Assembly: GCA_910584195.1 (NCBI GenBank)
Contig: CAJTYV010000001.1
Span: 239,728-303,727, forward strand
DNA length: 64,000 nucleotides
From: an uncultured Ruminococcus sp.
GTDB lineage: Bacteria; Bacillota; Clostridia; Oscillospirales; Ruminococcaceae
Direction of reading: 5' to 3'
The notes under the pieces are model-generated. The model did not search any database and was not told where the DNA came from. It saw only the letters and a program-made list of their open reading frames with translations. This document shows, piece after piece, positions 5,076 through 28,721 of this stretch. A program made the translations under genes and the position numbers. Position 1 is the first letter of the stretch. Every line of letters starts with the position of its first letter.

Positions 5076-5080
5076 CTTAA

Positions 5081-13755: not shown

Positions 13756-13851
13756 TAACTGAATTGTATCAGCTTACTGATATTGCCGGTATATTACTGT
13801 TTCTTTCTTGAATAATCATATTGGCGGTACCTTTGATATAGGGGTGACATA

Positions 13852-14214: not shown

Positions 14215-14357
14215 GAACATGTTTAAAGAAACACCGATCATATTACGTCTGACGGCTTGACATACATCTTGCTTGCAATTTTCGCTGTATTGCTTTTAAC
14301 AGCATGCTTTAAAGTGGAGAAAAGCAGATAGTAAATTATTTACGGAGGTATAAATCA

Positions 14358-15569: not shown

Positions 15570-15857
15570 AGAGGAACGCTGACTATGAACTGCGCCCTCT
15601 CCGCACATTCCAAATGCAGGTCAGCTCGCAGTTCAGTCAGCGGTTTCCAAGAATACATATCTGTAAATACAGATTTATACTCGCCGCTATTGCAAAATGT
15701 CCAAAGGATGCCGAACAGAAATTTTGTATGTTAAAGCGGAGGAGAAAAGCATACTGTCGTATGGTAACGACGACAACGCAGAAAGACAAAATTTGTGTCA
15801 GCATAACTGGATATTTTGTAACAGCGGCGAGTATATGTATTCCGGGAGGGCTAAATA

Positions 15858-16499
15858 ATGTCAAAAAACACAATTTCTAATTCCGTTATCAGACGTTTAC
15901 CGAGATACCACCGTTTTCTCGGTGAATTGGAAGCCAACGGATATGTTCGGATCTCTTCGAGAGAACTTGCCGAAAAAATGGGACTTACCGCTTCTCAGAT
16001 ACGTCAGGACTTTAATTGTTTCGGTGAATTCGGTCAGCAGGGTTACGGCTATAATGTCAGTGCTCTCAAAGGAGAGATTGGAAGAATATTGGGGCTTGAC
16101 AGAGTGACCCCAATGATACTGCTCGGTGCAGGCAACCTCGGAAGAGCTATCGCTTCCCATGTTGATTTTCGCAGCAAAGGCTTTGAGCTGATCGGCATTT
16201 TTGATTCAAGCAAAGAGATTATCGGCAAAAAAATCGGCGATATCACTATATCAGATATAAGCGAACTTGATGCTTTTTGCAGCAAAACAAAACCTCAGGG
16301 AGCTGTTCTCTGTATTCCAAAAGAGGCTGCTGCAAAGGAAATAGAAAAACTTATTGGATTTGGAATACGGGCTTTCTGGAATTTCACTCACTATGACCTG
16401 CGTATTGACCATGCGGATATTGCGGTGGAAAACGTTCACCTTGGCGACAGCCTTGCTACATTATCCTATCGTCTCAATCCGAACAGCAACGTTTGTTAA
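15858..16499 (+). CDS. rex: Redox-sensing transcriptional repressor Rex
   Basis: N-terminal RRLPRYHRFL winged-helix motif and a Rossmann motif GAGNLGRA. Confidence 0.9.
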   Translation: MSKNTISNSVIRRLPRYHRFLGELEANGYVRISSRELAEKMGLTASQIRQDFNCFGEFGQQGYGYNVSALKGEIGRILGLDRVTPMILLGAGNLGRAIASHVDFRSKGFELIGIFDSSKEIIGKKIGDITISDISELDAFCSKTKPQGAVLCIPKEAAAKEIEKLIGFGIRAFWNFTHYDLRIDHADIAVENVHLGDSLATLSYRLNPNSNVC

Positions 16500-16561
16500 A
16501 AAAATCACTAACTTTTGGAAAGTGAATAAATAAATTCTTTAATTAAAGGTGGTAACTTTAA

Positions 16562-17938
16562 ATGGATTATCGTATTGAACATGACTCTATGGGAGAGGTC
16601 AGAGTACCTGCTGATAAATACTGGGCAGCTCAGACCGAACGAAGTCACGAAAATTTTCTTATCGGAGTTGGTATAGAGACTATGCCTCGTGAGATAACTC
16701 ACGCTTTCGGTATTTTAAAAAAGGCTGCTGCTATTGCAAATCATGAGCTTCGTCCCGAAAAAATGACGGATGAAAAGCTTTCCGCAATTTCTCAGGCTTG
16801 CGACGAGGTGATCAGCGGTTCTCTCAACGATCATTTTCCGCTTGTCGTATGGCAGACAGGCAGCGGAACTCAATCCAATATGAATGCTAACGAGGTAATT
16901 GCCAACCGCGGAAATGAAATTGCCGGAAGCAAACTTCTTCATCCAAATGATGACATTAATATGAGCCAGTCATCAAACGACACATTCCCTACGGCAATGC
17001 ACATTGCCGCTGTAATAGCAATTGAAGATAAGGTCATTCCAGCTGTTAACACGCTCATTGATACTTTTAAAAGACTTGAAGCTGAAAACGACGGTATCGT
17101 AAAAAGCGGACGCACACATCTTCAGGACGCTACTCCCATTAAGTTCTCTCAGGAAATAAGCGGCTGGAGAGCGTCTCTTGAAAAAGATAAGAAAATGATA
17201 CTTTCTTCCTGCGAAGAGCTTAAAGAACTTGCTCTCGGCGGAACTGCCGTTGGTACAGGACTCAATGCTCCGAAAGGATTTGCCGAAAAATCTGCAGCTG
17301 CTATAAGCGAACTTACAGGGAAGAAGTTTATTACAGCCGAAAATAAGTTCCACTCGCTTACTTCGAAGGACGAAATCGTTTTCGCTCACGGCGCATTAAA
17401 AGCTTTGGCTGCCGATATGATGAAAATAGCAAACGATGTACGCTGGCTGGCTTCGGGTCCCCGTGACGGTCTCGGAGAAATATTCATTCCCGAAAATGAA
17501 CCCGGTTCATCTATCATGCCCGGCAAAGTAAATCCTACTCAATGTGAACAGGCTACAATGGTTGCGGTACAGGTAATGGGCAATGATGTAGCCGTTGGAA
17601 TGGCAGCTTCTCAGGGTAACTTTGAACTTAACGTATTTATGCCCGTTTGTGCATATAATTTCTTACAGTCGGCTCGTCTGCTTGCCGAATCAATAATGTC
17701 CTTCAACAAAAACTGCGCCGTCGGCATTAAGGCAAACAAGGAGAAAATGCATCATAACCTGCATAATTCCCTTATGCTCGTTACTGCGCTCAATCCCTAC
17801 ATCGGCTATGAAAATGCCGCTAAAACCGCAAAAAAAGCTTTCAAGGACAATATTTCACTTAAAGAAGCCTGCGTGGAGCTTGGATTCCTCACGGAAGAAA
17901 AATTCGATGAGGTTTTCCATCCCGAGCAAATGGCGTAA
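16562..17938 (+). CDS. fumC: Fumarate hydratase class II
   Basis: Fumarase/aspartase family signature GSSIMPGKVNPTQCE. The SSNDTFPTAMHIAA motif favours FumC over AspA. Confidence 0.85.
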   Translation: MDYRIEHDSMGEVRVPADKYWAAQTERSHENFLIGVGIETMPREITHAFGILKKAAAIANHELRPEKMTDEKLSAISQACDEVISGSLNDHFPLVVWQTGSGTQSNMNANEVIANRGNEIAGSKLLHPNDDINMSQSSNDTFPTAMHIAAVIAIEDKVIPAVNTLIDTFKRLEAENDGIVKSGRTHLQDATPIKFSQEISGWRASLEKDKKMILSSCEELKELALGGTAVGTGLNAPKGFAEKSAAAISELTGKKFITAENKFHSLTSKDEIVFAHGALKALAADMMKIANDVRWLASGPRDGLGEIFIPENEPGSSIMPGKVNPTQCEQATMVAVQVMGNDVAVGMAASQGNFELNVFMPVCAYNFLQSARLLAESIMSFNKNCAVGIKANKEKMHHNLHNSLMLVTALNPYIGYENAAKTAKKAFKDNISLKEACVELGFLTEEKFDEVFHPEQMA

Positions 17939-17960
17939 TCTGTCATGAAAGGAAGATATT

Positions 17961-18755
17961 ATGCAGACATTTACATACTATCCCGGCTGTACGCTGAGAA
18001 CTAAGGCCAAGGATCTTGACGCTTACGCAAGAAAGTCTGCCGAAGCTCTTGGAATCAGCCTTGTCGAGCCTGAAAACTGGCAGTGCTGCGGCGGAGCGTA
18101 CACATCGGCAACAAACGAGCCTGCTACAAAACTTTCCGCCGTAAGAACTCTTATGGCTGCTAAAGAAACAGAGGGACTCGTTACCGTATGCTCCGCATGT
18201 CATAATGTCATTAAACAGACTAACTATGATATTTCCCGTAATGAGGCTATGGCTGTCAAAGTACAGAGATACCTCGGTCTGGAAGAAGCTTACACAGGTG
18301 ATACCAAGGTATATCATTATCTCGAACTGCTCCGAGACGTTGTAGGCTTTGACAATCTTAAAACCAAGGTTGTGAATCCTTTAAAAAACAAGAAGATCGC
18401 CGCTTATTACGGCTGTCTCCTGCTCCGCCCGTCTAAGGCACTTGCTATGGACGATCCGGAAAATCCAACGATTATGGAAGATTTCATCAGAGCGATAGGC
18501 GGAACTCCCGTTATCTACGCTCAGAGGAACGAGTGCTGCGGCGGTTACATCACATTGGAGGATAAAGCTCAGGCGGCTAAACGAAGCAATGCAGTTATGG
18601 AATCAGCCGAAAGCATGGGAGCAGATATGATAATAACAGCTTGTCCGCTTTGTCTGTACAACCTGAAAAAAAATTCAGGCAGCAGTCTGCCTGTGTACTA
18701 CTTCACAGAGCTTCTTGCGGAAGCTTTAGGTTTGAAGGAGGTCAGCAATGAATAA
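17961..18755 (+). CDS. hdrB: HdrB-like subunit with two CCG domains (heterodisulfide reductase B / SdhE-TfrB-like)
   Basis: Two CCG domains: YYPGCTL...CCGGAY...CSAC and YYGCLL...CCGGY...CPLC. Confidence 0.8.
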   Translation: MQTFTYYPGCTLRTKAKDLDAYARKSAEALGISLVEPENWQCCGGAYTSATNEPATKLSAVRTLMAAKETEGLVTVCSACHNVIKQTNYDISRNEAMAVKVQRYLGLEEAYTGDTKVYHYLELLRDVVGFDNLKTKVVNPLKNKKIAAYYGCLLLRPSKALAMDDPENPTIMEDFIRAIGGTPVIYAQRNECCGGYITLEDKAQAAKRSNAVMESAESMGADMIITACPLCLYNLKKNSGSSLPVYYFTELLAEALGLKEVSNE

Positions 18756-19131
18756 GAACGAAAAGGACTGGATAGATATTACAAGCGGAGTAAACGTCCG
18801 CAAGTGTATGAGATGCGGAAAATGCTCGGCGACTTGTCCCTCATATGATGAAATGGAATATCATCCTCATCAGTTTGTTTATATGGTCGAAAAGGGAAAC
18901 ATAGAGCCGCTTTTGAACTCAAAATCTCTGTACAAATGCCTGACCTGCTTCGCCTGCGTTGAAAGGTGTCCGCGCGGCGTTGAGCCTGCAAAGGTCGTTG
19001 AGGCTGTACGTCTCACGGCAGTCCGCAAACAAGGGAACAATCACCTGCTTCCCGACCAAATACCCGATATGCTCGATGACGATCTTCCGCAGCAGGCGAT
19101 CGTTACGGCATTCAGAAAATACACAAAGTAA
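18748..19131 (+). CDS. hdrC: HdrC-like 2x[4Fe-4S] ferredoxin subunit
   Basis: Cluster motifs CMRCGKCSATCP and CLTCFACVERCP. Its start overlaps the hdrB stop. Confidence 0.8.
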   Translation: MNKNEKDWIDITSGVNVRKCMRCGKCSATCPSYDEMEYHPHQFVYMVEKGNIEPLLNSKSLYKCLTCFACVERCPRGVEPAKVVEAVRLTAVRKQGNNHLLPDQIPDMLDDDLPQQAIVTAFRKYTK

Positions 19132-19143
19132 GGAGGAGCGGCT

Positions 19144-21135
19144 ATGCAGAAAATAGGTGTTTTTGTCTGCCATTGCGGTACTAATATCGCTGCTACGGTA
19201 GACGTTAAAGCTGTTGCAGAGGCTCTTTCCCATGAGCCGGGAGTAGTCATCTCTCAGGATTATCAATACATGTGCTCCGAATCAGGACAGGAACTTGTAA
19301 AAAATGCAATCAAAGAACACGGACTGACAGGAGTCGTTGTATGCTCCTGCTCGCCGAGAATGCATGAAAATACATTCAGAAAAGCGGCAGCTTCCGCAGG
19401 ACTTAACCCATATCTTGTAGAGATCGCAAATATCCGCGAACAATGCTCCTGGATCCACAAGGATATTGCCTCCGCTACGGATAAAGCCGTTATCCTCGGA
19501 AAAGCGGCTGTTGCTAAAGTCCACCTGAATACGCCTCTCACAGCAGGAGAAAGTCCGGTTGTAAAGCGTGCGCTTGTTATAGGCGGCGGAATAGCGGGAA
19601 TACAAACGGCTCTTGATATTGCCGAAGCCGGATTTGACGTTGACATTGTTGAAAAAGAACCTACTATCGGCGGAAAAATGGCTCAGATCGACAAAACCTT
19701 CCCCACACTCGACTGTGCCGCATGTATACTTACCCCTAAAATGGTAGAGGCTGCTCAGAACGAACATATCACTATCCATTCTTTCAGCGAAATCAGCGAT
19801 GTCAAGGGTTTTGTGGGCAACTTTACCGTTACTATAAAGAAAAAGGCACGTTACGTTGACGAAACAAAATGTACCGGATGCGGACTTTGTACCGAAAAAT
19901 GCCCTATGAAAAAAGTTCCCAACGAATTCAATATGGGACTTGACAACAGGACAGCCGTATATATTCCTTTTGCTCAGGCAGTTCCGAAAGTAGCAACAAT
20001 TGATCCGAATTACTGTATGATGCTGAAAAACGGCAAGTGCGGCGTATGTTCAAAGGTCTGCTCGGTCGGCGCGATCGACTATAAGCAGAAAGATAAGCTT
20101 ATAGAACAAAAATACGGCGCAATCGTTGTCGCTACAGGTTTCAATCCCATTAAGCTCGACAAATACGATGAATTTGCATACAGCTTCTGCCCCGATGTCG
20201 TTACGTCTCTTGAACTTGAAAGACTTATGAACGCAGCAGGTCCTAACGGAGGAACGCTGCTTCGTCCCTCTGACAAAACTCATCCTCATACAATCGTTTT
20301 CGTACAGTGCGTTGGTTCGCGGTGCGATGATGAAAAGGGCAAACAATACTGCTCTAAGATCTGCTGTATGTACACCGCAAAACACGCTATGCTTATCCGT
20401 GAGAAATACCCGGATACAGAGGTTTACGTATTTTACATAGATGTGCGTACACCCGGAAAGAATTTCGACGAATTCTACCGCCGTGCAGTTGAACAGTACA
20501 ACGTTCATTATATCAAAGGAATGGTCGGCAAGGTAACCCCAAAAGCTGACGGCAAAATTGATGTTCAGGCTTCTGATCTTATTTCAAACGAACAGCTTCA
20601 CATCAACGCCGATATGGTAGTTCTTGCGGCGGCAATCGAGCCTGACAAGACCGCACGTCCTCTTGCTACCATGCTCACAACTCAGATGGATACAAACGAC
20701 TTCTTCACAGAAGCTCACCCGAAGCTGCGCCCCGTAGAATCGGCTACGGCAGGCATCTTCCTTTCGGGAGCATGTCAGGGTCCGAAGGATATTCCTGAAA
20801 CTGTCGCTCAGGCAAGCGCCGCTGCGGCTAAGGCTATCGGACTTCTCTGCAAGAACAGCATTACATGCAATCCCTGCGTTGCTCATTCGGACGAACTTAT
20901 GTGCAACGGATGTTCAGCCTGCGAAAAGGTATGTCCTTACGGAGCTATAACATATCAGGATAAGGAATTCAGAATGCCTGACCGCTCCACAGCAATACGC
21001 CGCGTTGCGAGCGTAAACCCTGCCGTATGTCAGGGCTGCGGCGCATGTACGGTAGCATGTCCTTCGGGAGCTATGGATCTTAACGGCTTCTCAAACAGTC
21101 AGATTATGGCGGAGGTAGACGCGATATGCAAGTAA
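19144..21135 (+). CDS. hdrA: HdrA-like FAD-containing iron-sulfur subunit
   Basis: N-terminal KIGVFVCHCGTNIA, FAD motif ALVIGGGIAGIQTALDIAEAG, and several CxxCxxCxxxCP ferredoxin motifs across its 663 aa. Confidence 0.85.
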   Translation: MQKIGVFVCHCGTNIAATVDVKAVAEALSHEPGVVISQDYQYMCSESGQELVKNAIKEHGLTGVVVCSCSPRMHENTFRKAAASAGLNPYLVEIANIREQCSWIHKDIASATDKAVILGKAAVAKVHLNTPLTAGESPVVKRALVIGGGIAGIQTALDIAEAGFDVDIVEKEPTIGGKMAQIDKTFPTLDCAACILTPKMVEAAQNEHITIHSFSEISDVKGFVGNFTVTIKKKARYVDETKCTGCGLCTEKCPMKKVPNEFNMGLDNRTAVYIPFAQAVPKVATIDPNYCMMLKNGKCGVCSKVCSVGAIDYKQKDKLIEQKYGAIVVATGFNPIKLDKYDEFAYSFCPDVVTSLELERLMNAAGPNGGTLLRPSDKTHPHTIVFVQCVGSRCDDEKGKQYCSKICCMYTAKHAMLIREKYPDTEVYVFYIDVRTPGKNFDEFYRRAVEQYNVHYIKGMVGKVTPKADGKIDVQASDLISNEQLHINADMVVLAAAIEPDKTARPLATMLTTQMDTNDFFTEAHPKLRPVESATAGIFLSGACQGPKDIPETVAQASAAAAKAIGLLCKNSITCNPCVAHSDELMCNGCSACEKVCPYGAITYQDKEFRMPDRSTAIRRVASVNPAVCQGCGACTVACPSGAMDLNGFSNSQIMAEVDAICK

Positions 21136-21566
21136 ATGAAAATTTTGAACCTGTAGTAGTAGCATTCTGCTGTAACTGGTGTTCATATGCAGGTGCCGAC
21201 CTTTCCGGTACCAACCGATTGAATTATCCCACAAACGTCAAGATCATCCGAGTCCCCTGCTCATGCAGAGTAAACCCGATGTTCATTCTCCGCGCTTTCC
21301 AGAGAGGTGCGGACGGCGTTATTCTTTGCGGCTGTCATCCCGGAGACTGTCACTACACTTCGGGAAACTATTTCACAAGAAGAAGAATCACGCTTCTTTA
21401 CAGTATGCTTGATTTTCTCGGTATTGAGCGAAGCAGAACACGTCTTGAATGGGTCTCGGCAGCCGAGGGCGCAAAGTTTGCGGCTGTTATGAATCAGTTC
21501 GTTGAGGACGTTAAAAAGCTTGGCCCTAACCGTAGATTGGAGGATCTGAGATGCAGGAAGCAATAA
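21126..21566 (+). CDS. mvhD: MvhD/FlxD-like [2Fe-2S] subunit
   Basis: Motifs VVAFCCNWCSYAGAD and LCGCHPGDCHY. Confidence 0.8.
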   Translation: MQVNENFEPVVVAFCCNWCSYAGADLSGTNRLNYPTNVKIIRVPCSCRVNPMFILRAFQRGADGVILCGCHPGDCHYTSGNYFTRRRITLLYSMLDFLGIERSRTRLEWVSAAEGAKFAAVMNQFVEDVKKLGPNRRLEDLRCRKQ

Positions 21567-22522
21567 TCAAAAGAGCAAAGGAGCTGCTTGCAGACGGCAC
21601 GGTCAATCGTGTTATGGGCTGGAAAAAGGGCGAATTTGCCTACGATGCAACACCTGCCGTTTTTGAAACGGCGAAAGAAATCGACAGGGACTTTGTGTAT
21701 AATGACTTCACTCAGAACAACCTGTCAAAATATCTAATCAAGGAATCACGGAAAGATGGAAAAATTCTTGCCCTGTTGAAACCCTGTGACACTTACAGCT
21801 TCAATCAGCTCGTTAAGGAACACAGAATTATCCGCGAGAATGTCTACGTTATCGGCATTCCCGGAGGTCCTAAAATAGATATTGAAAAAATAAAGGCAAA
21901 GGGCATCACAGGTATACTCAGCGTGAAAAACGAGAATTATACTCTGAAAATCGAAACTCTTTACGGAGTTGAGACTATGCCTTTCTATGAAGCAGTAAGC
22001 GTTAAATGCGAAAGCTGCAAAAGCAAAAAGCACGTTGTATATGACGAACTTATCGGAGAGGACGGTGACGTCCTTGAATCCAACCGCTTCGATATGGTTG
22101 AAAAGCTTGAAAATATGACTGCTCAGGAACGTTACGATTTCTGGAGGAGCGAGCTTTCAAAGTGCATCCGCTGTAATGCCTGCCGTAATGTATGTCCTGC
22201 ATGTACGTGCGAAAACTGCGTATTTGACAATCCTAAGTCAGGTATCGACCAAAAAGCGGCTGCCGATTCCTTTGAGGAAAATATGTTTCACATTATCCGA
22301 GCTTTTCATGTAGCCGGAAGATGTACAGACTGCGGCGAATGCTCCAGAGTATGTCCTCAGAATATTCCGCTTCATCTGCTTAACAGAAAATTTATTAAGG
22401 ATATTAACTGCCTTTACGGCGAATATCAGGCAGGCGCTGACACTACTTCAAAAGCTCCTCTTACCGATTATAAAACAGACGACTGCGAACCGTCTGTCGT
22501 TCATGAAAGGGGCGCTGAATAA
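21551..22522 (+). CDS. FlxC/HydB-like iron-sulfur subunit
   Basis: Motifs CIRCNACRNVCPACTCENC and CTDCGECSRVCP. Confidence 0.65.
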   Translation: MQEAIIKRAKELLADGTVNRVMGWKKGEFAYDATPAVFETAKEIDRDFVYNDFTQNNLSKYLIKESRKDGKILALLKPCDTYSFNQLVKEHRIIRENVYVIGIPGGPKIDIEKIKAKGITGILSVKNENYTLKIETLYGVETMPFYEAVSVKCESCKSKKHVVYDELIGEDGDVLESNRFDMVEKLENMTAQERYDFWRSELSKCIRCNACRNVCPACTCENCVFDNPKSGIDQKAAADSFEENMFHIIRAFHVAGRCTDCGECSRVCPQNIPLHLLNRKFIKDINCLYGEYQAGADTTSKAPLTDYKTDDCEPSVVHERGAE

Positions 22523-23541
22523 TGCTTAAAATTTCTGCTTCAAATTTAAACTTGCTTTTTGACAGAATTGCCGGAAAACAGACCTTGTATATCCCGGTTG
22601 ACCGCGAACCGAACACTTCCGAGTATAAAAAATACAAGAGCGGAATGATTATGAGCAAAGCTCTTAACACGGTTCGCAGCGCTAAGGACTTCTTCTTTCC
22701 GCAAACTGAAAATCTTGCCGAATTCAAAGTAAGCGGCAAAACTATTGAAGTCAAGGACATCCGTGAGGAAAACGAAGATTTCGTTGTATTCGGAGTACGT
22801 GCCTGCGATGCAAGGAGCTTCGGCATTCTCGATAAAGTATTTCTTTCAGAACCTGTTGACAGCTTCTACAAAAACCGCCGTGAACACGGTACAATTGTAA
22901 CAATGGCATGTACGCGTCCTTCTGAAACCTGCTTCTGCACGGCATTCGGTATTGACCCCACTGTTCCGGGAGGAGATGTTTCGGTATTCTTTGACGGAGA
23001 AAATTATTTCTTCCTTGATAATACGCCGAAAGGCGAAGCCTTTATAGCTTCGGTTTCCGATATGCTGGAGGACGGCGATGCTTCAAAGCTTGCAGAAGTT
23101 CAGGAAAATGCACGAAATACCATGAAAAAGCTTCCACTTGCAAATCTTTCGACCGATTCTTTCGGCGGAGACAGACTTATGGAGCACTTCAAATCAGAAA
23201 AATGGGCTGAACTTTCAGAATCCTGCATAGGCTGCGGCACATGTACTTTCGTATGCCCAACCTGCCAATGCTATGATATTCGTGACTTTGACACTGGAAA
23301 CGGCATAAAGCGTTTCCGCTGCTGGGATTCATGTATGTATTCTGATTTTACGAAAATGGCTCACGGAAATTCCAGAAACTCTCAGCTTGAACGGTTCAGA
23401 CAGCGTTTCATGCACAAGCTTGTATACTTTCCCGCAAACAACAACGGTGAATTCGGCTGTGTAGGCTGCGGACGCTGCTTGTCAAAATGCCCCATATCCA
23501 TGAATATCGTTAAGGTTATGAAAGCGCTGGAGGATAAGTAA
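22522..23541 (+). CDS. FlxB/AsrA-like iron-sulfur subunit
   Basis: Motifs CIGCGTCTFVCPTCQC and CVGCGRCLSKCP. Confidence 0.65.
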   Translation: MLKISASNLNLLFDRIAGKQTLYIPVDREPNTSEYKKYKSGMIMSKALNTVRSAKDFFFPQTENLAEFKVSGKTIEVKDIREENEDFVVFGVRACDARSFGILDKVFLSEPVDSFYKNRREHGTIVTMACTRPSETCFCTAFGIDPTVPGGDVSVFFDGENYFFLDNTPKGEAFIASVSDMLEDGDASKLAEVQENARNTMKKLPLANLSTDSFGGDRLMEHFKSEKWAELSESCIGCGTCTFVCPTCQCYDIRDFDTGNGIKRFRCWDSCMYSDFTKMAHGNSRNSQLERFRQRFMHKLVYFPANNNGEFGCVGCGRCLSKCPISMNIVKVMKALEDK

Positions 23542-24368
23542 TGAATAATGATACTTTAATACCGCTCATCGGAGTGGTTACGGATATACGTCAGGATACT
23601 CCCGATGTCAAAACATTCAGGGTAAATGCTATCGAGGGCGGAAAAGTTTTCGAGCATATGCCCGGTCAATGCGCAATGCTGTCCATTCCCGGTGTGGGCG
23701 AGGGTATGTTTTCAATTACCTCATCTCCTACAAACAAGGAATTTATGGAATTCAGCATAAAAAAATGCGGCTGCCTTACCACTTGGCTTCATGCGATGGA
23801 CGTAGGTCAGCAGATAACCATAAGAGGTCCCTACGGCAACTATTTCCCTGTTGATACTGACCTCAAAGGCAAAGATCTGCTCTTTATTGCCGGAGGTATC
23901 GGACTTGCACCTCTCCGTTCCGTTATAAATTATGTGCGTGATAAAAGAGAAGATTACGGCGATGTTCAGATCGTCTACGGTTCACGTTCTAAAGACGACC
24001 TCGTTGACTATAAGGAAATTATCGATGAGTGGACAGCCGACCCTAATATCGAAGTCAACCTCACCATAGATAATCCGCAGGAGGGCTGGGACGGTCATGT
24101 CGGCTTTGTTCCGAACTATGTCAAGGAGCTTGCTCCATCTACTAATAAGACCGTTCTTGTATGCGGTCCGCCTATTATGATCAAATTTACCCTTGCCGCT
24201 CTCAAGGAACTCGGTTTTACCGATACCCAGGTCTATACAACTATGGAGCTTCGCATGAAGTGCGGCGTTGGCAAGTGCGGCCGCTGCAATATCGGCGATA
24301 AGTACGTCTGCAAGGACGGTCCTGTTTTCCGATTTGATCAGCTTGACGCGCTTCCCGATGAATATTGA
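23541..24368 (+). CDS. FlxA/AsrB/PyrK-like NAD(P)H:FAD oxidoreductase subunit with a C-terminal [2Fe-2S]
   Basis: FNR-like FAD and NAD domains (LFIAGGIGLAPL) and the C-terminal motif CGVGKCGRCNIGDKYVCKDGPVF. Confidence 0.75.
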   Translation: MNNDTLIPLIGVVTDIRQDTPDVKTFRVNAIEGGKVFEHMPGQCAMLSIPGVGEGMFSITSSPTNKEFMEFSIKKCGCLTTWLHAMDVGQQITIRGPYGNYFPVDTDLKGKDLLFIAGGIGLAPLRSVINYVRDKREDYGDVQIVYGSRSKDDLVDYKEIIDEWTADPNIEVNLTIDNPQEGWDGHVGFVPNYVKELAPSTNKTVLVCGPPIMIKFTLAALKELGFTDTQVYTTMELRMKCGVGKCGRCNIGDKYVCKDGPVFRFDQLDALPDEY

Positions 24369-24395
24369 CCCACTATAAAATTACTATCTGCAATT

Positions 24396-24448
24396 TTATC
24401 GGGGGACTCTGTCCCCCGCCCCCCCTGCCAAAGGGGTGACCCCTTTGG
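24396..24448 (+). terminator. Two consecutive perfect GC-rich hairpins downstream of the flxA-like gene
   Basis: gggggac tct gtccccc followed by ccaaagggg tga cccctttgg. Confidence 0.5.
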
Positions 24449-24654
24449 AATCTCTGTTGTCGTAAGTGAGACGGTATAAAGTCTCCGTATTTATTAATAG
24501 CTCATATTTCAATGACTTTATACCGTCTAACTTACGATAATGGGTTCAAAGAATTATCCCTTGACAAGAAGTACGAGGAATAAAGCTCTCGTTAAATTGC
24601 GGATAGTATTTACAGAGGGTCTGCCTAAATAGAAAATTACAAAGGAGTTAAAGC

Positions 24655-25329
24655 ATGGATAATATGGTTAATGTCTACCTGTTCGGCAAAAAATACAGCG
24701 TGCCGTCAGGACTGACTATTATGACAGCTATGGAATATGCCGGCTATGAGCTTGTTAGAGGCTGCGGATGCAGAAACGGCTTCTGCGGCGCATGCGCCAC
24801 TATATACAGAATCAAGGGACAGCAGCAGCTTAACGCCTGCCTTGCATGTCAGACTGAGGTTCAAGAGGGAATGTACGTTGCTGCACTTCCTTTCTTTCCC
24901 CTTGTCAAGCAGGTCTACAACATTGAAGAAATAAAACCCACTGAACAGATCATGATGCAGCTTTATCCTGAAATATACGCCTGCATCGGCTGTAACGCAT
25001 GTACAAAGGCATGTACTCAGGAGCTTAACGTTATGCAGTATATCGCATATGCTCAGAGAGGCGAATACGAAAAATGCGCTGAGGAAAGCTTTGACTGCGT
25101 AATGTGCGGCGTATGTTCATCGCGTTGTCCCGCCGGCATCTCACACCCTCAGGTAGCTATGCTTGCACGCCGTCTTAACGGTAAATACCTTGCTCCCGGC
25201 TGCGGTCATCTTGAGGATCGTGTAAAGGAGATCAACGAGGGAACTTTCGAAGAACTCATCGAAAGCCTTATGCAGAAGCCCATTGACGAGATCAAGGAGC
25301 TTTACAATACGCGCGAAATTGAAAAGTAA
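24655..25329 (+). CDS. frdB: Fumarate reductase / succinate dehydrogenase iron-sulfur subunit
   Basis: N-terminal [2Fe-2S] motif CGCRNGFCGACA, then CIGCNACTKAC and CVMCGVCSSRCP. Confidence 0.8.
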   Translation: MDNMVNVYLFGKKYSVPSGLTIMTAMEYAGYELVRGCGCRNGFCGACATIYRIKGQQQLNACLACQTEVQEGMYVAALPFFPLVKQVYNIEEIKPTEQIMMQLYPEIYACIGCNACTKACTQELNVMQYIAYAQRGEYEKCAEESFDCVMCGVCSSRCPAGISHPQVAMLARRLNGKYLAPGCGHLEDRVKEINEGTFEELIESLMQKPIDEIKELYNTREIEK

Positions 25330-25342
25330 GGAGGAGCTGGCA

Positions 25343-26947
25343 ATGTATAAAATTGAAAAGCTTAACGAACTGGCAAAAATAGTTGCAGAAAAAAGAGCCG
25401 CAAATGCCGAATTAGAGCCGAAAAGAATGACCGCTGAAGAAAAGGACACTCTCCTTGCCGCTTTTCATCCCGATTATAAGCAGGACGAATTTACCGTGCT
25501 TTCCGCGGGAGTGAACAAAGGCGAAAAAGTTCCCTCACAGCTTGCAGAACTTTTACAGGGAAAAAGCAGAATTTCCGCCGATGACGTTGACCTCTCATCT
25601 CCCGACTATGAAACCGACGTTCTTATAATCGGAGGAGGCGGAGCAGGCGCATCTGCTGCCATTGAAGCCGATGAAGCCGGCGTAAAGGCTATGATCGTTA
25701 CAAAGCTTCGTATAGGCGATGCCAATACAATGATGGCGGAAGGCGGCATACAGGCTGCTGATAAACCCAACGACTCCCCCGCTATCCATTATATAGACGC
25801 TTTTGGAGGAGGTCACTTTGCCGCTAAGCCCGAGCTTGTAAAGAATCTTGTTACAAAAGCTCCCGAAGCAATTCTTTGGCTCAATAAGCTTGGCGTTGAG
25901 TTTGACAAGGAAGCTGACGGAACAATGGTTACAACTCACGGCGGCGGTACTTCAAGAAAAAGAATGCATGCCGCAAAGGATTATTCCGGAGCTGAGATAA
26001 TGCGCACTCTCCGCGATGAGGTTCTTAACAGAGGTATTCCTGTTATTGATTTCACATCTGCTATCGAGATAATTCTCGATGAAAACGGCAGGGCGGCAGG
26101 CGCAGTCCTTATGAATATGGAAACAAAGGAACTTCTTGTTGCCCGCGCAAAAACTGTTATTATTGCTACAGGCGGTGCAGGTCGTCTGCATTATCAGGGA
26201 TTTCCGACCTCAAATCATTACGGAGCAACTGCGGACGGACTTATACTCGGTTACCGCGTCGGCGCAGGTCTGCTTTATGCAGATACGCTTCAATATCACC
26301 CAACAGGCACAGGCTATCCCGAACAGATTTTCGGTGCGCTTGTTACGGAGAAAGTCCGCTCACTGGGGGCAAAGCTTGTTAATATTGACGGAGAAGTTTT
26401 CATGAACCCGCTTGAGACCCGTGATGTAACAGCTTCTTCAATTATACGCGAATGTACGGAAAGAAACAAAGGCGTTGAAACACACCTCGGCAAGGCTGTA
26501 TGGCTCGATACACCTATGATCGAGCTTATCCACGGCGAAGGTACTATTGAAAAGAGAATACCTGCAATGATGCGTATGTTCGGTAAATACGGCATCGACA
26601 TACGCAAAGAGCCTATCCTTGTTTATCCTACGCTTCACTATCAGAACGGAGGACTTAATATCTCGGTTGACTGCTCGACAGACGTTGAAAATCTGTATGC
26701 GGCAGGCGAGGTTGCAGGCGGTATTCATGGCAGAAACCGTCTCATGGGCAATTCTCTGCTTGACGTAATCGTATTCGGAAGAGATGCAGGCAAGAATGCG
26801 GCTGCAAAGGCTAAGGACATATCAGCGCCTGAAAAGCTTACTCTTGCTCATATCGAAAGATTCAATAAGGAACTTGCAGAAGCAGGCATTGCAAGCGATA
26901 CCGTATCCCCGATGCTTCTTCCGCATTATGCAAGAAAATCAAAGTAA
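25343..26947 (+). CDS. frdA: Fumarate reductase flavoprotein subunit, soluble type with non-covalent FAD
   Basis: aaggagg RBS at 25328-25334 and an ATG at 25343. FAD fold VLIIGGGGAGASAAIEA and the QYHPTG and HYQNGGL motifs. The covalent-FAD site reads DANTMMAEGG with no histidine. No FrdC/FrdD anchor is encoded. Confidence 0.8.
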   Translation: MYKIEKLNELAKIVAEKRAANAELEPKRMTAEEKDTLLAAFHPDYKQDEFTVLSAGVNKGEKVPSQLAELLQGKSRISADDVDLSSPDYETDVLIIGGGGAGASAAIEADEAGVKAMIVTKLRIGDANTMMAEGGIQAADKPNDSPAIHYIDAFGGGHFAAKPELVKNLVTKAPEAILWLNKLGVEFDKEADGTMVTTHGGGTSRKRMHAAKDYSGAEIMRTLRDEVLNRGIPVIDFTSAIEIILDENGRAAGAVLMNMETKELLVARAKTVIIATGGAGRLHYQGFPTSNHYGATADGLILGYRVGAGLLYADTLQYHPTGTGYPEQIFGALVTEKVRSLGAKLVNIDGEVFMNPLETRDVTASSIIRECTERNKGVETHLGKAVWLDTPMIELIHGEGTIEKRIPAMMRMFGKYGIDIRKEPILVYPTLHYQNGGLNISVDCSTDVENLYAAGEVAGGIHGRNRLMGNSLLDVIVFGRDAGKNAAAKAKDISAPEKLTLAHIERFNKELAEAGIASDTVSPMLLPHYARKSK

Positions 26948-27004
26948 ATAAATTTATGGGACGCCCTTAAAAGCGTCCCACTAATTTGTAAAAAGAAAGT
27001 AAGA

Positions 27005-28225
27005 GTGATAAAAATGGATTTTTTTAATGGAATACTTTCCATTCATGGAGTTTCATTCCTTATGGTCTCGGTTATCGCAATTGCGGCTCTGGGATATGTA
27101 ATTGGCAGAATAACGATAAAAGGCATTTCACTTGGAACAGCCGGAGTTTTCCTTGTTGCCCTTGCATACGGCTGCTTTTTCCACAAAGAGCTTTCAAATG
27201 AAATAAATGCAGACTTTGTAAGCGATGCATTAAAGATAGTAGATAATCTTGGACTTATTCTTTTTGTTACGGCAGTAGGCTTTATTGCAGGTCCTAATTT
27301 TTTTGGTAATTTTAAGAAGAATTTCAAGTCGTATGTAGTTCTTGCAGTTATAATAATTTTCAGCGGCGGTCTCGCATGTGCCGGCTGCATTCTTGCAGGA
27401 CGCAATTTCACGGATCGTTCACCGGAGGAATTTACAGCAATACTCACGGGAATACTTTCGGGTGCGCTTACAAGTACGCCCGGATTTTCAGCGGCAAAAG
27501 ACGCAGTAGGTACAAAGGAACTTCAGGACGCAGTTTCTGTAGGCTACGCTATCGCCTATATCTTCGGAGTTATCGGAGTTGTTCTCTTTGTTCAGCTCAT
27601 ACCAAAAATGTTAAAAGCCAATATGTCAGACGAACGTAAGCTTCTCGCTAACATCGACTCCAAAAGTGAAAGGAAAGCTGAAAAAGGCAAGCTTCTTGAA
27701 ATGGACGATTTTGGAATTATGCCTTTTGCGCTTGCGGCGTTTATCGGTATTTTTATCGGTTCTTTCAAGTTCAGGAATTTCTCGCTTTCAACAACCGGCG
27801 GCTGTCTGCTGGCATCTTTGATATTTGGTCATTTCGGAAAAATCGGAAAAATAAACTTAATGCCCAAAGACGGAACTCTTAAGGTTTTCCGTGAACTCGG
27901 TCTGATGTTCTTCCTAATAGGAGCAGGAGTATCAGGCGGAGCTAAATTCGTGAAATATTTTGATCCTATATATTTTGTGTATGGAATAATCATGACGATC
28001 GTTCCCATGATATTAGGTTTCCTGTTTGCTAAATATGTGCTTAAGCTGAGTCTTTTAAACAATCTTGGCTCTATCACCGGCGGTATGACTTCTACTCCTG
28101 CGCTCGGTACTCTTATCAGCACAGCCGGTACCGAGGACGTTGCTTCCGCTTATGCTGCAACTTACCCTGTAGCTCTTATATCGGTAGTTATAGTTTCTCA
28201 GGTATTGATAATGCTCTTCAAATAA
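27005..28225 (+). CDS. AAE-family (AspT/YidE/YbjL-like) transporter, two tandem transmembrane repeats
   Basis: Polytopic 406-aa protein with a two-fold repeated architecture and no TrkA-C domains. Candidate C4-dicarboxylate or aspartate exchanger. Confidence 0.6.
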   Translation: MIKMDFFNGILSIHGVSFLMVSVIAIAALGYVIGRITIKGISLGTAGVFLVALAYGCFFHKELSNEINADFVSDALKIVDNLGLILFVTAVGFIAGPNFFGNFKKNFKSYVVLAVIIIFSGGLACAGCILAGRNFTDRSPEEFTAILTGILSGALTSTPGFSAAKDAVGTKELQDAVSVGYAIAYIFGVIGVVLFVQLIPKMLKANMSDERKLLANIDSKSERKAEKGKLLEMDDFGIMPFALAAFIGIFIGSFKFRNFSLSTTGGCLLASLIFGHFGKIGKINLMPKDGTLKVFRELGLMFFLIGAGVSGGAKFVKYFDPIYFVYGIIMTIVPMILGFLFAKYVLKLSLLNNLGSITGGMTSTPALGTLISTAGTEDVASAYAATYPVALISVVIVSQVLIMLFK

Positions 28226-28244: not shown

Positions 28245-28721
28245 ATGGATATAGAATTTTATTTTCCTATTATAATGGTATCTTTTGGAATTCTGTTTAT
28301 ATTATGGATGTTTTGTAAATGCTATTTTGATAATAAAAAAGATAAAGCCATAATAACGGAAATTTATAAAAAATATGGTGTAAAAACAACAGCGAAAATT
28401 ATTCGCTGCGGCAAACACATTAACACGCAAAGAACTATGCCGTACAAATACGAGTTGTTAGTTGAGTTCAATTACAATAGTCCTATAAAAGGGTGTTTAT
28501 GTCCTTGTCTGGCAAAGATATTAACAAATAATCCAAATTATAAAAATTACGAAAGTTTTATTCCCATAATATACATTCCTCAGTATGCTGATTATGTTAA
28601 TGAATTTGATGATTCAAAAAAATTGTGTCAGAATATAGGCATTAATGTATATCAGTATTCAGATGAAATGATAATATGTACTGATGATATAAATATCCAT
28701 ACAAATTTGAGCGAACTCTAA
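28245..28721 (+). CDS. Hypothetical AT-rich protein with an N-terminal transmembrane helix
   Basis: A 158-aa ORF that is Lys/Asn/Ile/Tyr-rich, with lower GC content than its neighbours. Confidence 0.35.
   Translation: MDIEFYFPIIMVSFGILFILWMFCKCYFDNKKDKAIITEIYKKYGVKTTAKIIRCGKHINTQRTMPYKYELLVEFNYNSPIKGCLCPCLAKILTNNPNYKNYESFIPIIYIPQYADYVNEFDDSKKLCQNIGINVYQYSDEMIICTDDINIHTNLSEL

What the first reader, a model, noticed from the sequence alone, without database searches (positions are those of the whole stretch)
16562..28225. rex-fumC-hdrBCA-mvhD-flxCBA-frdBA-transporter locus: candidate soluble electron-bifurcating NADH:fumarate reductase
An 11.6-kb co-directional block has a Rex repressor, then fumarase, then (22-nt gap) an HdrB-like CCG protein, HdrC, HdrA, MvhD, and two Fe-S subunits. 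Next comes a PyrK/AsrB-like NAD(P)H-FAD-[2Fe-2S] subunit, followed after a structured spacer by FrdB and a flavoprotein FrdA. No membrane anchor is encoded, and the next gene is a dicarboxylate-type exchanger. From D. vulgaris the FlxABCD-HdrABC module is known as an NADH-linked flavin-based bifurcating system. Archaeal TfrAB and type-E Sdh show that CCG-domain (HdrB-like) proteins can partner fumarate reductase or Sdh catalytic subunits. My inference is that this is a cytoplasmic complex coupling NADH oxidation to fumarate reduction (+30 mV) and ferredoxin reduction (low potential). That would let a succinate-producing Ruminococcus-type fermenter conserve extra energy through Fd_red (Rnf/Ech). 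I am not aware of a characterised bacterial Flx-Hdr-FrdAB assembly.
Basis: partly seen in the sequence, partly recalled or inferred. Interest (0 to 1): 0.88.

Follow-up and report, generated by a model that had tools for sequence, protein, structure and literature searches.

The report
Soluble Flx-Hdr-linked fumarate reductase operon
A rumen Ruminococcus carries a tightly conserved operon that joins a membrane-free fumarate reductase to an NADH-dehydrogenase/heterodisulfide-reductase module, probably so that succinate formation also yields energy-rich reduced ferredoxin; this idea has already been published for a related bacterium and is still untested biochemically.

Summary
On the + strand lie rex, fumC, hdrB, hdrC, hdrA, mvhD(flxD), flxC, flxB, flxA, frdB, frdA and an AspT/YidE-type transporter. 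None of the ten redox proteins has a membrane segment. FrdA is closer to TfrA/FrdA than to NadB and keeps every fumarate-site residue. FrdB has the SdhB-type [2Fe-2S] motif and occurs naturally fused to FrdA. In 54 of 55 species-level genomes with enough flanking DNA, frdBA sits behind the same seven hdr/flx genes; 52 also have fumC. The most likely mechanism is NADH to FlxABC to MvhD to the HdrA flavin, which splits electrons between ferredoxin and HdrC/HdrB to FrdB to FrdA to fumarate. This is inferred, not shown. It is not new. The same "succinate operon" and the same hypothesis were published for Pseudoclostridium thermosuccinogenes (2019 preprint; BMC Microbiol 2020). An equivalent idea was published for rTCA clusters of tubeworm symbionts (2019, 2024, 2026). 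No biochemical proof was found. The "structured spacer" is a strain-private MITE-like insertion, not part of the system. New here: wide distribution in gut and rumen Oscillospirales, and FrdBA pairing with other donor modules elsewhere.

The parts
15858..16499 (+). rex, redox-sensing (NADH/NAD+) repressor
   Evidence: NCBIfam NF003990 Rex equivalog scores 278 bits against a cutoff of 233. Pfam Put_DNA-bind_N plus CoA_binding. The gene is adjacent to fumC only in the R. flavefaciens-group loci L001, L002, L005, L006, L008 and L081.
16493..16510 (+). weak candidate Rex box TTGTTAAAAAAATCACTA, 52-69 nt upstream of the fumC start
   Evidence: It matches TTGTGAA-N4-TTCACAA at 11 of 14 positions. 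The same site occurs in L002 and L006. Enrichment over shuffles is only weak. Inconclusive.
16562..17938 (+). fumC, class II fumarate hydratase (malate to fumarate)
   Evidence: TIGR00979 scores 708 bits against a cutoff of 665. It is present directly upstream of hdrB in 52 of 55 species loci.
17961..18755 (+). hdrB-like subunit with two complete CCG motifs (two non-cubane [4Fe-4S] sites); proposed electron exit toward FrdB
   Evidence: PF02754 occurs twice. It aligns full length to HdrB 7bkb_B, E 7.6e-31. Its NCBIfam scores are about equal for SdhE of type-E fumarate reductase (134 bits) and HdrB (131 bits). Cysteine motifs were read.
18748..19131 (+). hdrC, 2x[4Fe-4S] ferredoxin-like subunit
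   Evidence: TIGR03290 HdrC E 6e-19; Fer4_8/Fer4_17. It overlaps hdrB by 8 nt.
19144..21135 (+). hdrA, FAD/Fe-S flavoprotein; presumed bifurcating flavin
   Evidence: 697 bits, residues 3-660, to M. thermolithotrophicus HdrA 5ODC_A. It matches the HdrA2 model at 801 bits.
21126..21566 (+). mvhD / flxD, [2Fe-2S] electron-entry adaptor to HdrA
   Evidence: PF02662 FlpD E 1.7e-54. It matches the C-terminal part (644-774) of the fused HdrA2 model.
21551..22522 (+). flxC-like Fe-S protein
   Evidence: Fer4_8/Fer4_9 over residues 200-272; 16 Cys.
22522..23541 (+). flxB-like Fe-S protein (AsrA / sulfhydrogenase beta type)
   Evidence: Fer4_22 E 3e-30; ShyB/HydB/AsrA models E 1e-52 to 3e-40, all below cutoff.
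23541..24368 (+). flxA-like NAD(P)H-binding FAD/[2Fe-2S] subunit (AsrB/PyrK/HydG type); electron entry from NADH
   Evidence: FAD_binding_6 plus NAD_binding_1 plus DHODB_Fe-S_bind. AsrB and HydG models score E 1e-58 to 1e-67.
24366..24621 (.).
   Evidence: It has imperfect terminal inverted repeats of about 28 nt, read directly from the sequence, plus an inner 27-nt inverted repeat. RNA fold z = -8.8. It is absent from all relatives: flxA-frdB gaps there are 12-35 nt. No other copy was found in the window, the loci or a metagenome 22-mer scan. Rfam gives only generic hairpin hits.
24655..25329 (+). frdB, iron-sulfur subunit with [2Fe-2S] plus 2x[4Fe-4S]
   Evidence: CRNGFCGAC...C plus CIGCNACTKAC plus CVMCGVCSSRCP. 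Twelve Cys are invariant across the family. The N-terminal domain hits TfrB residues 19-94 and E. coli FrdB 1kf6_B, E 2e-7, with a family profile. It is fused to FrdA in P0122.
25343..26947 (+). frdA, fumarate reductase flavoprotein: non-covalent FAD, no C-terminal domain, family-specific N-terminal extension of about 90 aa
   Evidence: FAD_binding_2 E 1e-70. TfrA 347, Sdh/Frd 279 and NadB 278 bits, all below cutoff. The catalytic equivalents of E. coli H232, E245, R248, R287, H355 and R390 are invariant, and His44 is replaced by Asn. The AF2 model has pLDDT 89, and its best PDB match is E. coli FrdA, TM 0.72.
26957..26980 (+). hairpin between frdA and the transporter gene (possible attenuator or weak terminator)
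   Evidence: Terminator-like scan: 8-pair stem with 6 GC pairs and a poor T tail.
27005..28225 (+). AspT/YidE/YbjL (AAEx) family transporter; probable succinate exporter or dicarboxylate exchanger
   Evidence: PF06826 occurs twice, E 4e-62; TIGR01625. Nine TM-like segments. A homologue lies within 2.5 kb downstream of frdA in 47 of 69 loci.

Best explanation
The operon encodes the cytoplasmic, quinone-independent fumarate reductase system of a succinate-forming Ruminococcus.

Proposed path:
- FumC makes fumarate from malate.
- NADH is oxidised at FlxA (FAD, [2Fe-2S]).
- Electrons pass through the FlxB/FlxC Fe-S clusters and the MvhD(FlxD) [2Fe-2S] to the HdrA flavin.
- There the electron pair is split. 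One electron goes uphill through the HdrA ferredoxin domains to ferredoxin. The other goes downhill via HdrC and the CCG clusters of HdrB into FrdB ([2Fe-2S], 2x[4Fe-4S]), then to the non-covalent FAD of FrdA, which reduces fumarate.

Overall reaction: 2 NADH + fumarate + Fd(ox) gives 2 NAD+ + succinate + Fd(red, 2 e-).

Succinate leaves through the AAEx transporter. Reduced ferredoxin is cashed in elsewhere (Rnf, Ech or hydrogenase; none is encoded in this window).

Shown here: gene identities, cofactor motifs, solubility, catalytic residues and near-universal co-conservation.

Inferred: physical complex formation, direct HdrB-to-FrdB electron transfer, and bifurcation with its stoichiometry.
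For: - Every subunit of a Flx-Hdr module and of an FrdAB catalytic pair is present, with intact cofactor motifs.
- No membrane anchor is present.
- FrdA keeps all fumarate-site residues but has Asn in place of the covalent-FAD histidine. By established knowledge, this is typical of enzymes that reduce fumarate rather than oxidise succinate.
- The FrdA model matches E. coli FrdA best.
- In 54 of 55 species loci the order hdrBCA-mvhD-flxCBA-frdBA is kept, and 52 of 55 also have fumC. Junctions are overlapping or short. Partial loci show no unexpected absences.
- A more distant relative (FrdA 56% identical) keeps hdrA-mvhD-hdrC-hdrB directly fused in order to frdB-frdA, although it has no flx genes. 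The Hdr-Frd link is therefore older than the Flx link.
- The archaeal TfrB model is matched piecewise by FrdB (19-94), HdrC (126-220) and HdrB (264-487). CCG domains wired to an FrdB-type cluster chain therefore already exist as one polypeptide.
- Thermodynamics, from established potentials: NADH -320 mV, fumarate +30 mV, ferredoxin about -450 mV. The mean acceptor potential of about -210 mV makes the coupled reaction exergonic.
- Literature: the orthologous-looking operon of P. thermosuccinogenes is transcribed and is about 4-fold up at low CO2. High H2 abolishes succinate formation there, as expected if the reductase makes reduced ferredoxin.
Against: - No biochemical or structural datum exists for any member.
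- Even for Desulfovibrio Flx-Hdr, bifurcation is a proposal.
- In HdrB the CCG clusters are a catalytic disulfide-reducing site, not a proven protein-to-protein relay.
- One species (L075) has frdBA with a CitMHS transporter but no hdr/flx within 10 kb. Relatives pair FrdBA with a NuoF-like subunit, or with nothing. FrdBA therefore does not intrinsically need Hdr.
- In this strain a 256-nt hairpin element with a terminator-like stem separates flxA from frdB. This could uncouple transcription.
- The ferredoxin sink is not in the window.
Confidence: 0.58

Rival explanations
1. A non-bifurcating soluble NADH:fumarate reductase. Flx and Hdr subunits act only as a long Fe-S wire from NADH to FrdAB, no ferredoxin is reduced, and the free energy is dissipated. 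By the literature, this is how the five-subunit NADH-dependent enzyme of Hydrogenobacter thermophilus behaves.
For: Soluble NADH-dependent fumarate reductases exist and are described as irreversible (PMC13147460). Relatives L084-L086 pair FrdBA with just a NuoF-like NADH module, so a simple NADH-to-Frd design is viable.
Against: A full-length HdrA with all its ferredoxin domains (697 bits to 5ODC_A) plus MvhD is conserved at 73-96% identity across species. That is a costly addition if it serves only as a wire. The H2 inhibition of succinate formation in P. thermosuccinogenes fits ferredoxin reduction.
Confidence: 0.17
2. A thiol-mediated two-step system. Flx-Hdr bifurcates NADH electrons to ferredoxin and to an unknown disulfide carrier. 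The thiol is then re-oxidised at a CCG site that feeds FrdBA, so that HdrBC plus FrdBA form a split thiol:fumarate reductase.
For: TfrA is the best-scoring model for FrdA. HdrB, HdrC and FrdB together cover the TfrB model. The published schemes for P. thermosuccinogenes and Endoriftia allow thiols or a DsrC-like carrier.
Against: FrdB has no CCG domain of its own. No DsrC/TusE-like or other small thiol-carrier gene is conserved in the operon: the only extra ORF, 28245-28721, has no homologue in 80 loci. CoM and CoB are not known in Clostridia (established knowledge). A single HdrB would have to both reduce and re-oxidise the carrier.
Confidence: 0.12
3. Confurcation or ferredoxin disposal. Reduced ferredoxin from pyruvate:ferredoxin oxidoreductase, together with NADH, is funnelled into fumarate, so that succinate serves as an H2-independent sink.
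For: HdrA-type enzymes are reversible in principle. The gene content does not fix the direction.
Against: It wastes low-potential electrons on a +30 mV acceptor. It also predicts that high H2 would favour succinate, which is the opposite of what was reported for P. thermosuccinogenes.
Confidence: 0.05
4. The flavoprotein does not act on fumarate. It could be an L-aspartate oxidase or another enoate reductase, or frdBA and flx-hdr could be functionally independent neighbours.
For: FrdA is below the curated cutoff of every NCBIfam model, and NadB scores about as well as Sdh/Frd. The catalytic residues are shared with NadB.
Against: It has an obligatory Fe-S partner, which is even fused to it. 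fumC is adjacent in 52 of 55 loci, and dicarboxylate transporters lie downstream. No NadB structure appears among the top 50 fold matches. The 54 of 55 synteny argues against independence.
Confidence: 0.05

Closest known systems
'Succinate operon' of Pseudoclostridium (Hungateiclostridium) thermosuccinogenes: fumarate hydratase, Flx-Hdr (7 genes), novel fumarate reductase (2 genes), putative succinate transporter (Koendjbiharie & van Kranenburg 2019 preprint; PMC7282089)
   Same: It has the same 1+7+2+1 gene architecture and the same proposed function: fumarate reduction linked to ferredoxin reduction through Flx-Hdr. It also comes from a succinate-forming member of the Clostridia.
   Different: It is a different genus, a thermophile. 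I could not retrieve its sequences, so orthology rests on the published description. It has RNA-seq evidence; this window has none. The window adds rex upstream and carries a private hairpin insertion between flxA and frdB.
rTCA gene clusters of Candidatus Endoriftia persephone / Thioflavicoccus mobilis: tfrAB and korABCD interspersed with flxABCD-hdrABC (PMC6315080; PMC11636981; PMC13147460)
   Same: An AB-type soluble fumarate reductase is co-located and co-expressed with Flx-Hdr. The authors propose that NADH electrons reduce fumarate and ferredoxin simultaneously. Locus L082 found here (kor-hdrA-mvhD-hdrC-hdrB-frdB-frdA) resembles it.
   Different: It belongs to an autotrophic CO2-fixation context in Gammaproteobacteria and includes 2-oxoglutarate:ferredoxin oxidoreductase. 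The window belongs to a fermentative succinate pathway and has no kor genes.
FlxABCD-HdrABC of Desulfovibrio vulgaris (Ramos et al. 2015)
   Same: All seven subunit types are present with the same domain content, in mirrored gene order.
   Different: The proposed high-potential acceptor there is the DsrC disulfide, in ethanol metabolism. Here it would be FrdBA and fumarate. No DsrC is in the operon.
Thiol:fumarate reductase TfrAB of Methanothermobacter (Heim et al. 1998)
   Same: TfrA is the best-scoring model for FrdA (347 bits). Both are soluble with no membrane anchor. FrdB has two [4Fe-4S]-type motifs, as TfrB does. TfrB combines an FrdB-type domain with CCG domains.
   Different: The score is far below the TfrA cutoff of 718. 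FrdA lacks the C-terminal domain: the match covers only 6-412 of 546 model positions. FrdB has no CCG domains. The electron donor there is CoM-SH plus CoB-SH.
HdrABC-MvhAGD of methanogens (PDB 5ODC; Wagner et al. 2017)
   Same: HdrA, HdrB, HdrC and MvhD align full length. It is the structural paradigm for flavin-based bifurcation at HdrA.
   Different: The donor is H2 via the MvhAG hydrogenase, and the acceptor is CoM-S-S-CoB.
Quinol:fumarate reductase FrdABCD of E. coli and type-E (SdhE, CCG-anchored) enzymes
   Same: It has the same catalytic fold and residues (1kf6_A is the top fold match). The [2Fe-2S] motif of FrdB is shared. In type-E enzymes a CCG protein (SdhE) partners SdhAB, and the window HdrB scores as well on the SdhE model as on HdrB.
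   Different: The window system has no FrdC/D, no quinone site, no covalent FAD and no C-terminal domain. FrdB has a second [4Fe-4S] motif instead of the [3Fe-4S] motif.
Five-subunit soluble NADH-dependent fumarate reductase of Hydrogenobacter thermophilus (Miura et al. 2008)
   Same: It is a soluble, multi-subunit, NADH-linked fumarate reductase with an FrdA-type catalytic subunit (as summarised in PMC13147460).
   Different: It is not reported to reduce ferredoxin, and its genes are dispersed.

Membership tests
FlxABCD-HdrABC NADH dehydrogenase/heterodisulfide reductase | FlxA with NAD(P)H-binding, FAD-binding and [2Fe-2S] domains | tested here: met
   PF00970 plus PF00175 plus PF10418 in 23541-24368.
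FlxABCD-HdrABC NADH dehydrogenase/heterodisulfide reductase | FlxB and FlxC Fe-S proteins, and FlxD homologous to MvhD | tested here: met
   Fer4_22 and Fer4_8 proteins; PF02662 E 1.7e-54.
FlxABCD-HdrABC NADH dehydrogenase/heterodisulfide reductase | HdrA (FAD plus Fe-S), HdrB with two CCG motifs, and HdrC, clustered with the flx genes | tested here: met
   The genes are contiguous, with overlaps.
FlxABCD-HdrABC NADH dehydrogenase/heterodisulfide reductase | NADH-dependent, ferredoxin-coupled reduction of a high-potential acceptor | not testable with these tools
   Needs an enzyme assay.
Flx-Hdr-linked 'novel fumarate reductase' operon (P. thermosuccinogenes type) | Operon of fumarate hydratase, 7 Flx-Hdr genes, 2 fumarate reductase genes and a putative succinate transporter | tested here: met
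   The window gene order matches the description in PMC7282089.
Flx-Hdr-linked 'novel fumarate reductase' operon (P. thermosuccinogenes type) | Sequence orthology of FrdA/FrdB to CDQ83_RS03325-20 | not tested
Complex II-type Sdh/Frd flavoprotein (SdhA/FrdA) | FAD_binding_2 fold with catalytic His/Arg/Glu/Thr residues | tested here: met
   PF00890 E 1e-70. Equivalents of H232, E245, R248, R287, H355 and R390 are invariant. 1kf6_A is the top fold match.
Complex II-type Sdh/Frd flavoprotein (SdhA/FrdA) | Covalent 8-alpha-N3-histidyl FAD (the His of the SHT motif) | tested here: not met
   GDANTMMAEGG: Asn128 is invariant in the family.
Complex II-type Sdh/Frd flavoprotein (SdhA/FrdA) | C-terminal Succ_DH_flav_C domain, and curated model score above cutoff | tested here: not met
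   No PF02910 hit. TIGR01812 scores 279 bits against a cutoff of 567.
Complex II-type Sdh/Frd (holoenzyme) | Membrane anchor subunit(s) and a quinone site | tested here: not met
   No TM-like segment in any redox subunit. No FrdC/D-like gene.
SdhB/FrdB iron-sulfur subunit | N-terminal plant-type [2Fe-2S] motif Cx4Cx2C...C followed by two cubane-cluster motifs | tested here: met
   The profile hits 1kf6_B (E 2e-7) and several SdhB chains. Curated dhsB score is 29 bits against a cutoff of 88, so this is a divergent member.
Thiol:fumarate reductase TfrAB | TfrB carrying C-terminal CCG domains on the same polypeptide as the FrdB-type clusters | tested here: not met
   FrdB (224 aa) has no CCG domain; the CCG domains are on the separate HdrB.
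Thiol:fumarate reductase TfrAB | TfrA curated model above cutoff | tested here: not met
   NF004900 scores 347 bits against a cutoff of 718, covering 6-412 of 546 model positions.
L-aspartate oxidase NadB | Curated model above cutoff; stand-alone flavoprotein in a nadA/nadC context | tested here: not met
   TIGR00551 scores 278 bits against a cutoff of 453. It has an obligate adjacent or fused Fe-S partner and fumC context.

The most novel reading that the evidence does not exclude
FrdBA is a portable, soluble fumarate-reducing cartridge that docks onto the CCG subunit of an HdrABC core. The non-cubane clusters of HdrB would then work as a protein-to-protein electron exit rather than as a disulfide-reducing site. 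With FlxABCD as the NADH input, this gives quinone- and cytochrome-free 'fumarate respiration' that makes reduced ferredoxin. In other lineages the same cartridge is plugged into other donors, namely Kor-Hdr or a NuoF-like subunit.
Probability: 0.45. Interest if true: 0.75.

Novelty: new member of a known kind. Interest (0 to 1): 0.5.

Why it matters
Succinate is a major product of rumen and gut fermentation and the precursor of propionate. How cytochrome- and quinone-free ruminococci gain energy from fumarate reduction has not been settled experimentally. If the operon works as proposed, each fumarate reduced would also yield one pair of low-potential electrons on ferredoxin. Those electrons could drive Rnf or Ech ion pumping, or H2 formation. 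That would change ATP-yield and hydrogen-budget models for a very abundant group of fibre degraders. It would also add a new acceptor class, a C=C bond reductase, to HdrA-based electron bifurcation. The operon is compact, soluble and very widespread, which makes the published but untested hypothesis directly testable.

Tried and rejected
- Rex operator scans gave no convincing site. TTGTGAA-N6-TTCACAA and TTGTTAA-N4-TTAACAA in the window, and TTGTGAA-N4-TTCACAA upstream of fumC in 53 loci, gave only 11-12 of 14 matches, with weak enrichment over shuffles.
- Rfam at gathering threshold found only RNase P in the window. E-value mode on the two structured spacers gave only generic hairpin (miRNA-precursor) hits, or nothing. 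A riboswitch or known-sRNA reading of the spacer is therefore rejected.
- The idea that the spacer is a conserved regulatory element is rejected, because it is absent from all relatives.
- Copies of the spacer element were sought in the window, in 80+ loci, and by an exact 22-mer scan of metagenome contigs. None was found.
- The two hairpin elements E1 and E2 are not related to each other.
A family-profile search of the PDB was used instead.
- The 2019 preprint and Miura et al. 2008 are not held in the library.
- The NadB reading was considered and rejected on HMM ranking, Fe-S partner, context and fold ranking.
- More distant FrdA relatives (40-48% identical; L088-L090) have other small partners and no Hdr. 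They were not pursued.

Full report
**Observation.**

The + strand between 14.3 and 28.3 kb carries a compact, co-directional set of genes. Pfam and NCBIfam scans identify them as follows:

| Gene | Coordinates |
|---|---|
| aconitase (further upstream) | 11749-13755 |
| NADP-isocitrate dehydrogenase | 14358-15569 |
| Rex | 15858-16499 |
| class II fumarase | 16562-17938 |
| HdrB-like protein with two CCG domains | 17961-18755 |
| HdrC | 18748-19131 |
| HdrA | 19144-21135 |
| MvhD | 21126-21566 |
| Fe-S protein (flxC-like) | 21551-22522 |
| Fe-S protein (flxB-like) | 22522-23541 |
| AsrB/PyrK-type FAD/NAD/[2Fe-2S] protein (flxA-like) | 23541-24368 |
| 2Fe-2S plus 2x4Fe-4S protein (frdB) | 24655-25329 |
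| FAD_binding_2 flavoprotein (frdA) | 25343-26947 |
| Asp-Al_Ex (AAEx) transporter | 27005-28225 |

- Junctions from fumC to flxA are overlaps or gaps of at most 22 nt.
- A Kyte-Doolittle scan finds no transmembrane-like segment in any of the ten redox proteins, and nine in the transporter.
Minor corrections: rex lies just outside the stated start, and frdA most likely starts at ATG 25343.

**Organism.**

FrdA is 90-96% identical to proteins of Ruminococcus sp. and R. flavefaciens. The window also encodes a GH9-CBM3 cellulase and other fibre-degrading proteins. It is a rumen or gut cellulolytic Ruminococcus of the flavefaciens group.

**The catalytic pair.**

FrdA:
- It scores best on the TfrA model (347 bits), then Sdh/Frd (279) and NadB (278). 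All are below their curated cutoffs.
- It aligns with E. coli FrdA over residues 89-491. It keeps the equivalents of H232, E245, R248, R287, H355 and R390, and these are invariant in an alignment of ten family members.
- The histidine that carries covalent FAD is an invariant asparagine.
- The C-terminal Succ_DH_flav_C domain is missing.
- A family-specific N-terminal extension of about 90 residues is present.
- An AlphaFold2 model (pLDDT 89, pTM 0.91) superposes best on E. coli FrdA (1kf6_A, TM 0.72), followed by other complex II flavoproteins and flavocytochrome c3. No NadB structure is in the top 50.

FrdB:
- It has the SdhB-type motif CRNGFCGAC...C and two CxxCxxCxxxC(P) motifs. Twelve cysteines are invariant in the family.
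- Its N-terminal domain matches TfrB. With a family profile, it matches E. coli FrdB and several SdhB chains.
- One relative (P0122, 727 aa) is a natural FrdB-FrdA fusion.

Together these results reject the NadB reading and the "unrelated ferredoxin" reading.

**The Flx-Hdr module.**

- HdrA aligns end to end with the structurally characterised bifurcating HdrA (5ODC_A, 697 bits).
- HdrB aligns end to end with methanogen HdrB and has both CCG motifs complete.
- On NCBIfam, HdrB scores as well on SdhE, the CCG subunit of type-E fumarate reductases, as on HdrB.
- MvhD, the two Fe-S proteins and the FAD/NAD/[2Fe-2S] protein correspond to FlxD, FlxC, FlxB and FlxA.
- The archaeal TfrB model is hit piecewise by FrdB (positions 19-94), HdrC (126-220) and HdrB (264-487). 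Nature has therefore already fused an FrdB-type cluster chain to CCG domains.

**Conservation.**

The best 80 loci (73-92% identity) were kept. All come from gut or rumen Clostridia such as Ruminococcus, Yeguia, Congzhengia, Faecousia, Acutalibacteraceae and Oscillospiraceae. tblastn of the window proteins against these loci gave the following:

| Test | Result |
|---|---|
| Loci with at least 8.7 kb upstream that carry hdrB-hdrC-hdrA-mvhD-flxC-flxB-flxA-frdB-frdA in the same order and spacing | 54 of 55 |
| Of those 55, loci that also have fumC | 52 of 55 |
| Unexpected absences in the 25 partial loci | none |
| AAEx transporter downstream of frdA | 47 of 69 |

- The single exception (L075) has a CitMHS carboxylate transporter followed by frdBA.

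**Deeper relatives show modularity.**

- A 56%-identical FrdA sits in korDABC-hdrA-mvhD-hdrC-hdrB-frdB-frdA with no flx genes. Its Hdr subunits are 38-48% identical to those in the window.
- A 46%-identical one, in proteobacterial-type contigs, forms frdB-frdA-nuoF-like.
- Others are a fused FrdB-FrdA or a bare frdA-frdB pair.
- FrdBA therefore behaves as a portable soluble reductase module. Its association with Hdr is older than its association with Flx.

**The spacer.**

- The 286-nt flxA-frdB gap folds very stably (z = -8.8).
- It has imperfect terminal inverted repeats of about 28 nt and an inner 27-nt inverted repeat (sequence).
- In the 12 relatives inspected, and in the closest one (L081, 95% FrdA identity), the gap is only 12-35 nt and contains just a ribosome-binding site.
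- The element is thus a strain-private, MITE-like insertion between the flxA stop and the frdB ribosome-binding site.
- It has no other copy in the window, in the loci, or in a metagenome 22-mer scan, and no Rfam family.
- A second, unrelated long-hairpin insertion lies between icd and rex at 15570-15857 (z = -10.0). Relatives have 22-119 nt there.
- These are the only two such elements in the 64 kb.

**Regulation.**

- Rex is a confident call.
- It is adjacent to fumC only in the flavefaciens clade.
- The best candidate operator is 16493-16510, with 11 of 14 matches. It is weak, and its enrichment across loci is marginal.

**Mechanism.**

The best-supported reading is as follows. NADH is oxidised by FlxA. 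Electrons reach the HdrA flavin via FlxB/C and MvhD. There they bifurcate to ferredoxin and, via HdrC/HdrB to FrdB to FrdA, to fumarate. With standard potentials (NADH -320, fumarate +30, ferredoxin about -450 mV) the coupled reaction is exergonic.

- The non-covalent FAD fits a dedicated fumarate-reducing direction (established knowledge).
- The steps from gene content to complex formation, direct HdrB-FrdB contact, and bifurcation are inferences.
- Rival readings are a non-bifurcating wire, a thiol-carrier-mediated split Tfr, confurcation, and a non-fumarate substrate. They are less well supported but are not excluded.

**Prior knowledge.**

- The same operon was described as the "succinate operon" of Pseudoclostridium thermosuccinogenes: fumarate hydratase, seven Flx-Hdr genes, two fumarate reductase genes and a putative succinate transporter. 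RNA-seq showed about 4-fold induction at low CO2. [quoted passage not shown]
- Independently, tfrAB and korABCD interspersed with flxABCD-hdrABC were noted in tubeworm symbionts and Thioflavicoccus. The proposal there was a complex that reduces fumarate and ferredoxin with NADH (PMC6315080). Co-expression was shown in 2024 (PMC11636981).
- A 2026 survey still calls the idea "suggested" and asks for verification (PMC13147460).
- A 2024 preprint noticed a STRING link between HdrA and Sdh/Frd in Ruminococcus champanellensis without explaining it.
- Nine full-text searches found no biochemical characterisation, and no discussion for R. flavefaciens.

**Verdict.**

However, it re-derives a published, still unproven proposal. 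This work adds four things:
- the breadth and rigidity of the operon in gut and rumen Oscillospirales;
- the definition of the divergent FrdA/FrdB family features;
- evidence that FrdBA is a modular cartridge used with different donor modules;
- the demonstration that the spacer is incidental.

Noticed in passing
window 15570-15857: A second strain-private, extremely structured intergenic element lies between icd and rex. It has nested inverted repeats with 28-nt arms at 15676-15703 and 15808-15835, and RNA fold z = -10.0. Relatives have only 22-119 nt here. It is unrelated in sequence to the flxA-frdB element. The 88-aa ORF 15614-15880 lies inside it and is probably spurious.
   Followed up: partly
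window 24366-24621: A MITE-like hairpin element is inserted exactly between the flxA stop codon and the frdB ribosome-binding site. It contains a terminator-like stem at 24428-24448 and weak promoter-like hexamers at 24609-24637, so it might alter frdBA expression in this strain.
   Followed up: partly
L084, L085, L086 (9366-12891 in each): Proteobacterial-type contigs, with cytochrome c, flagellar and sigma-54 genes nearby, carry a three-gene operon: frdB, frdA, and a NuoF-like gene (Complex1_51K plus NADH_4Fe-4S). This is a candidate soluble NADH:fumarate reductase of a different design, built on the same FrdBA family.
   Followed up: no
L082 811-9771: korDABC (2-oxoacid:ferredoxin oxidoreductase) is followed directly by hdrA-mvhD-hdrC-hdrB-frdB-frdA, without flx genes. 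It resembles the rTCA clusters described for tubeworm symbionts. The electron donor is unclear.
   Followed up: partly
L083 5250-7433 (protein P0122): A natural fusion of FrdB (N-terminal 215 aa) with FrdA in one 727-aa protein, with no hdr or flx genes on the 7.7-kb contig.
   Followed up: partly
L075 8079-11605: This Congzhengia sp. locus is the only one of 55 where frdBA lacks the hdr/flx genes. Instead a CitMHS-family carboxylate transporter precedes frdB.
   Followed up: partly
window 11749-15569: Aconitase and NADP-isocitrate dehydrogenase sit directly upstream of rex-fumC. The oxidative branch (toward 2-oxoglutarate) and the reductive branch (toward succinate) of a split TCA pathway are therefore neighbours. 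icd-rex-fumC adjacency is conserved in the flavefaciens clade.
   Followed up: partly
window 28245-28721: A 158-aa ORF downstream of the transporter has 8 Cys and one hydrophobic segment. It has no Pfam or NCBIfam match and no homologue in any of the 80 related loci.
   Followed up: partly
window 5080-5425 (- strand): Bacterial RNase P class A RNA (265 bits). A near-perfect 24-nt inverted repeat (4983-5006 / 5023-5046) lies just beside it.
   Followed up: no
L088-L090: More distant FrdA-family members (40-48% identical, 480-500 aa) are each followed by a conserved small 106-116-aa ORF with no Pfam family. One of them (L089) also has a 183-aa Fe-S protein and an ECF riboflavin S-component nearby.
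   Followed up: no
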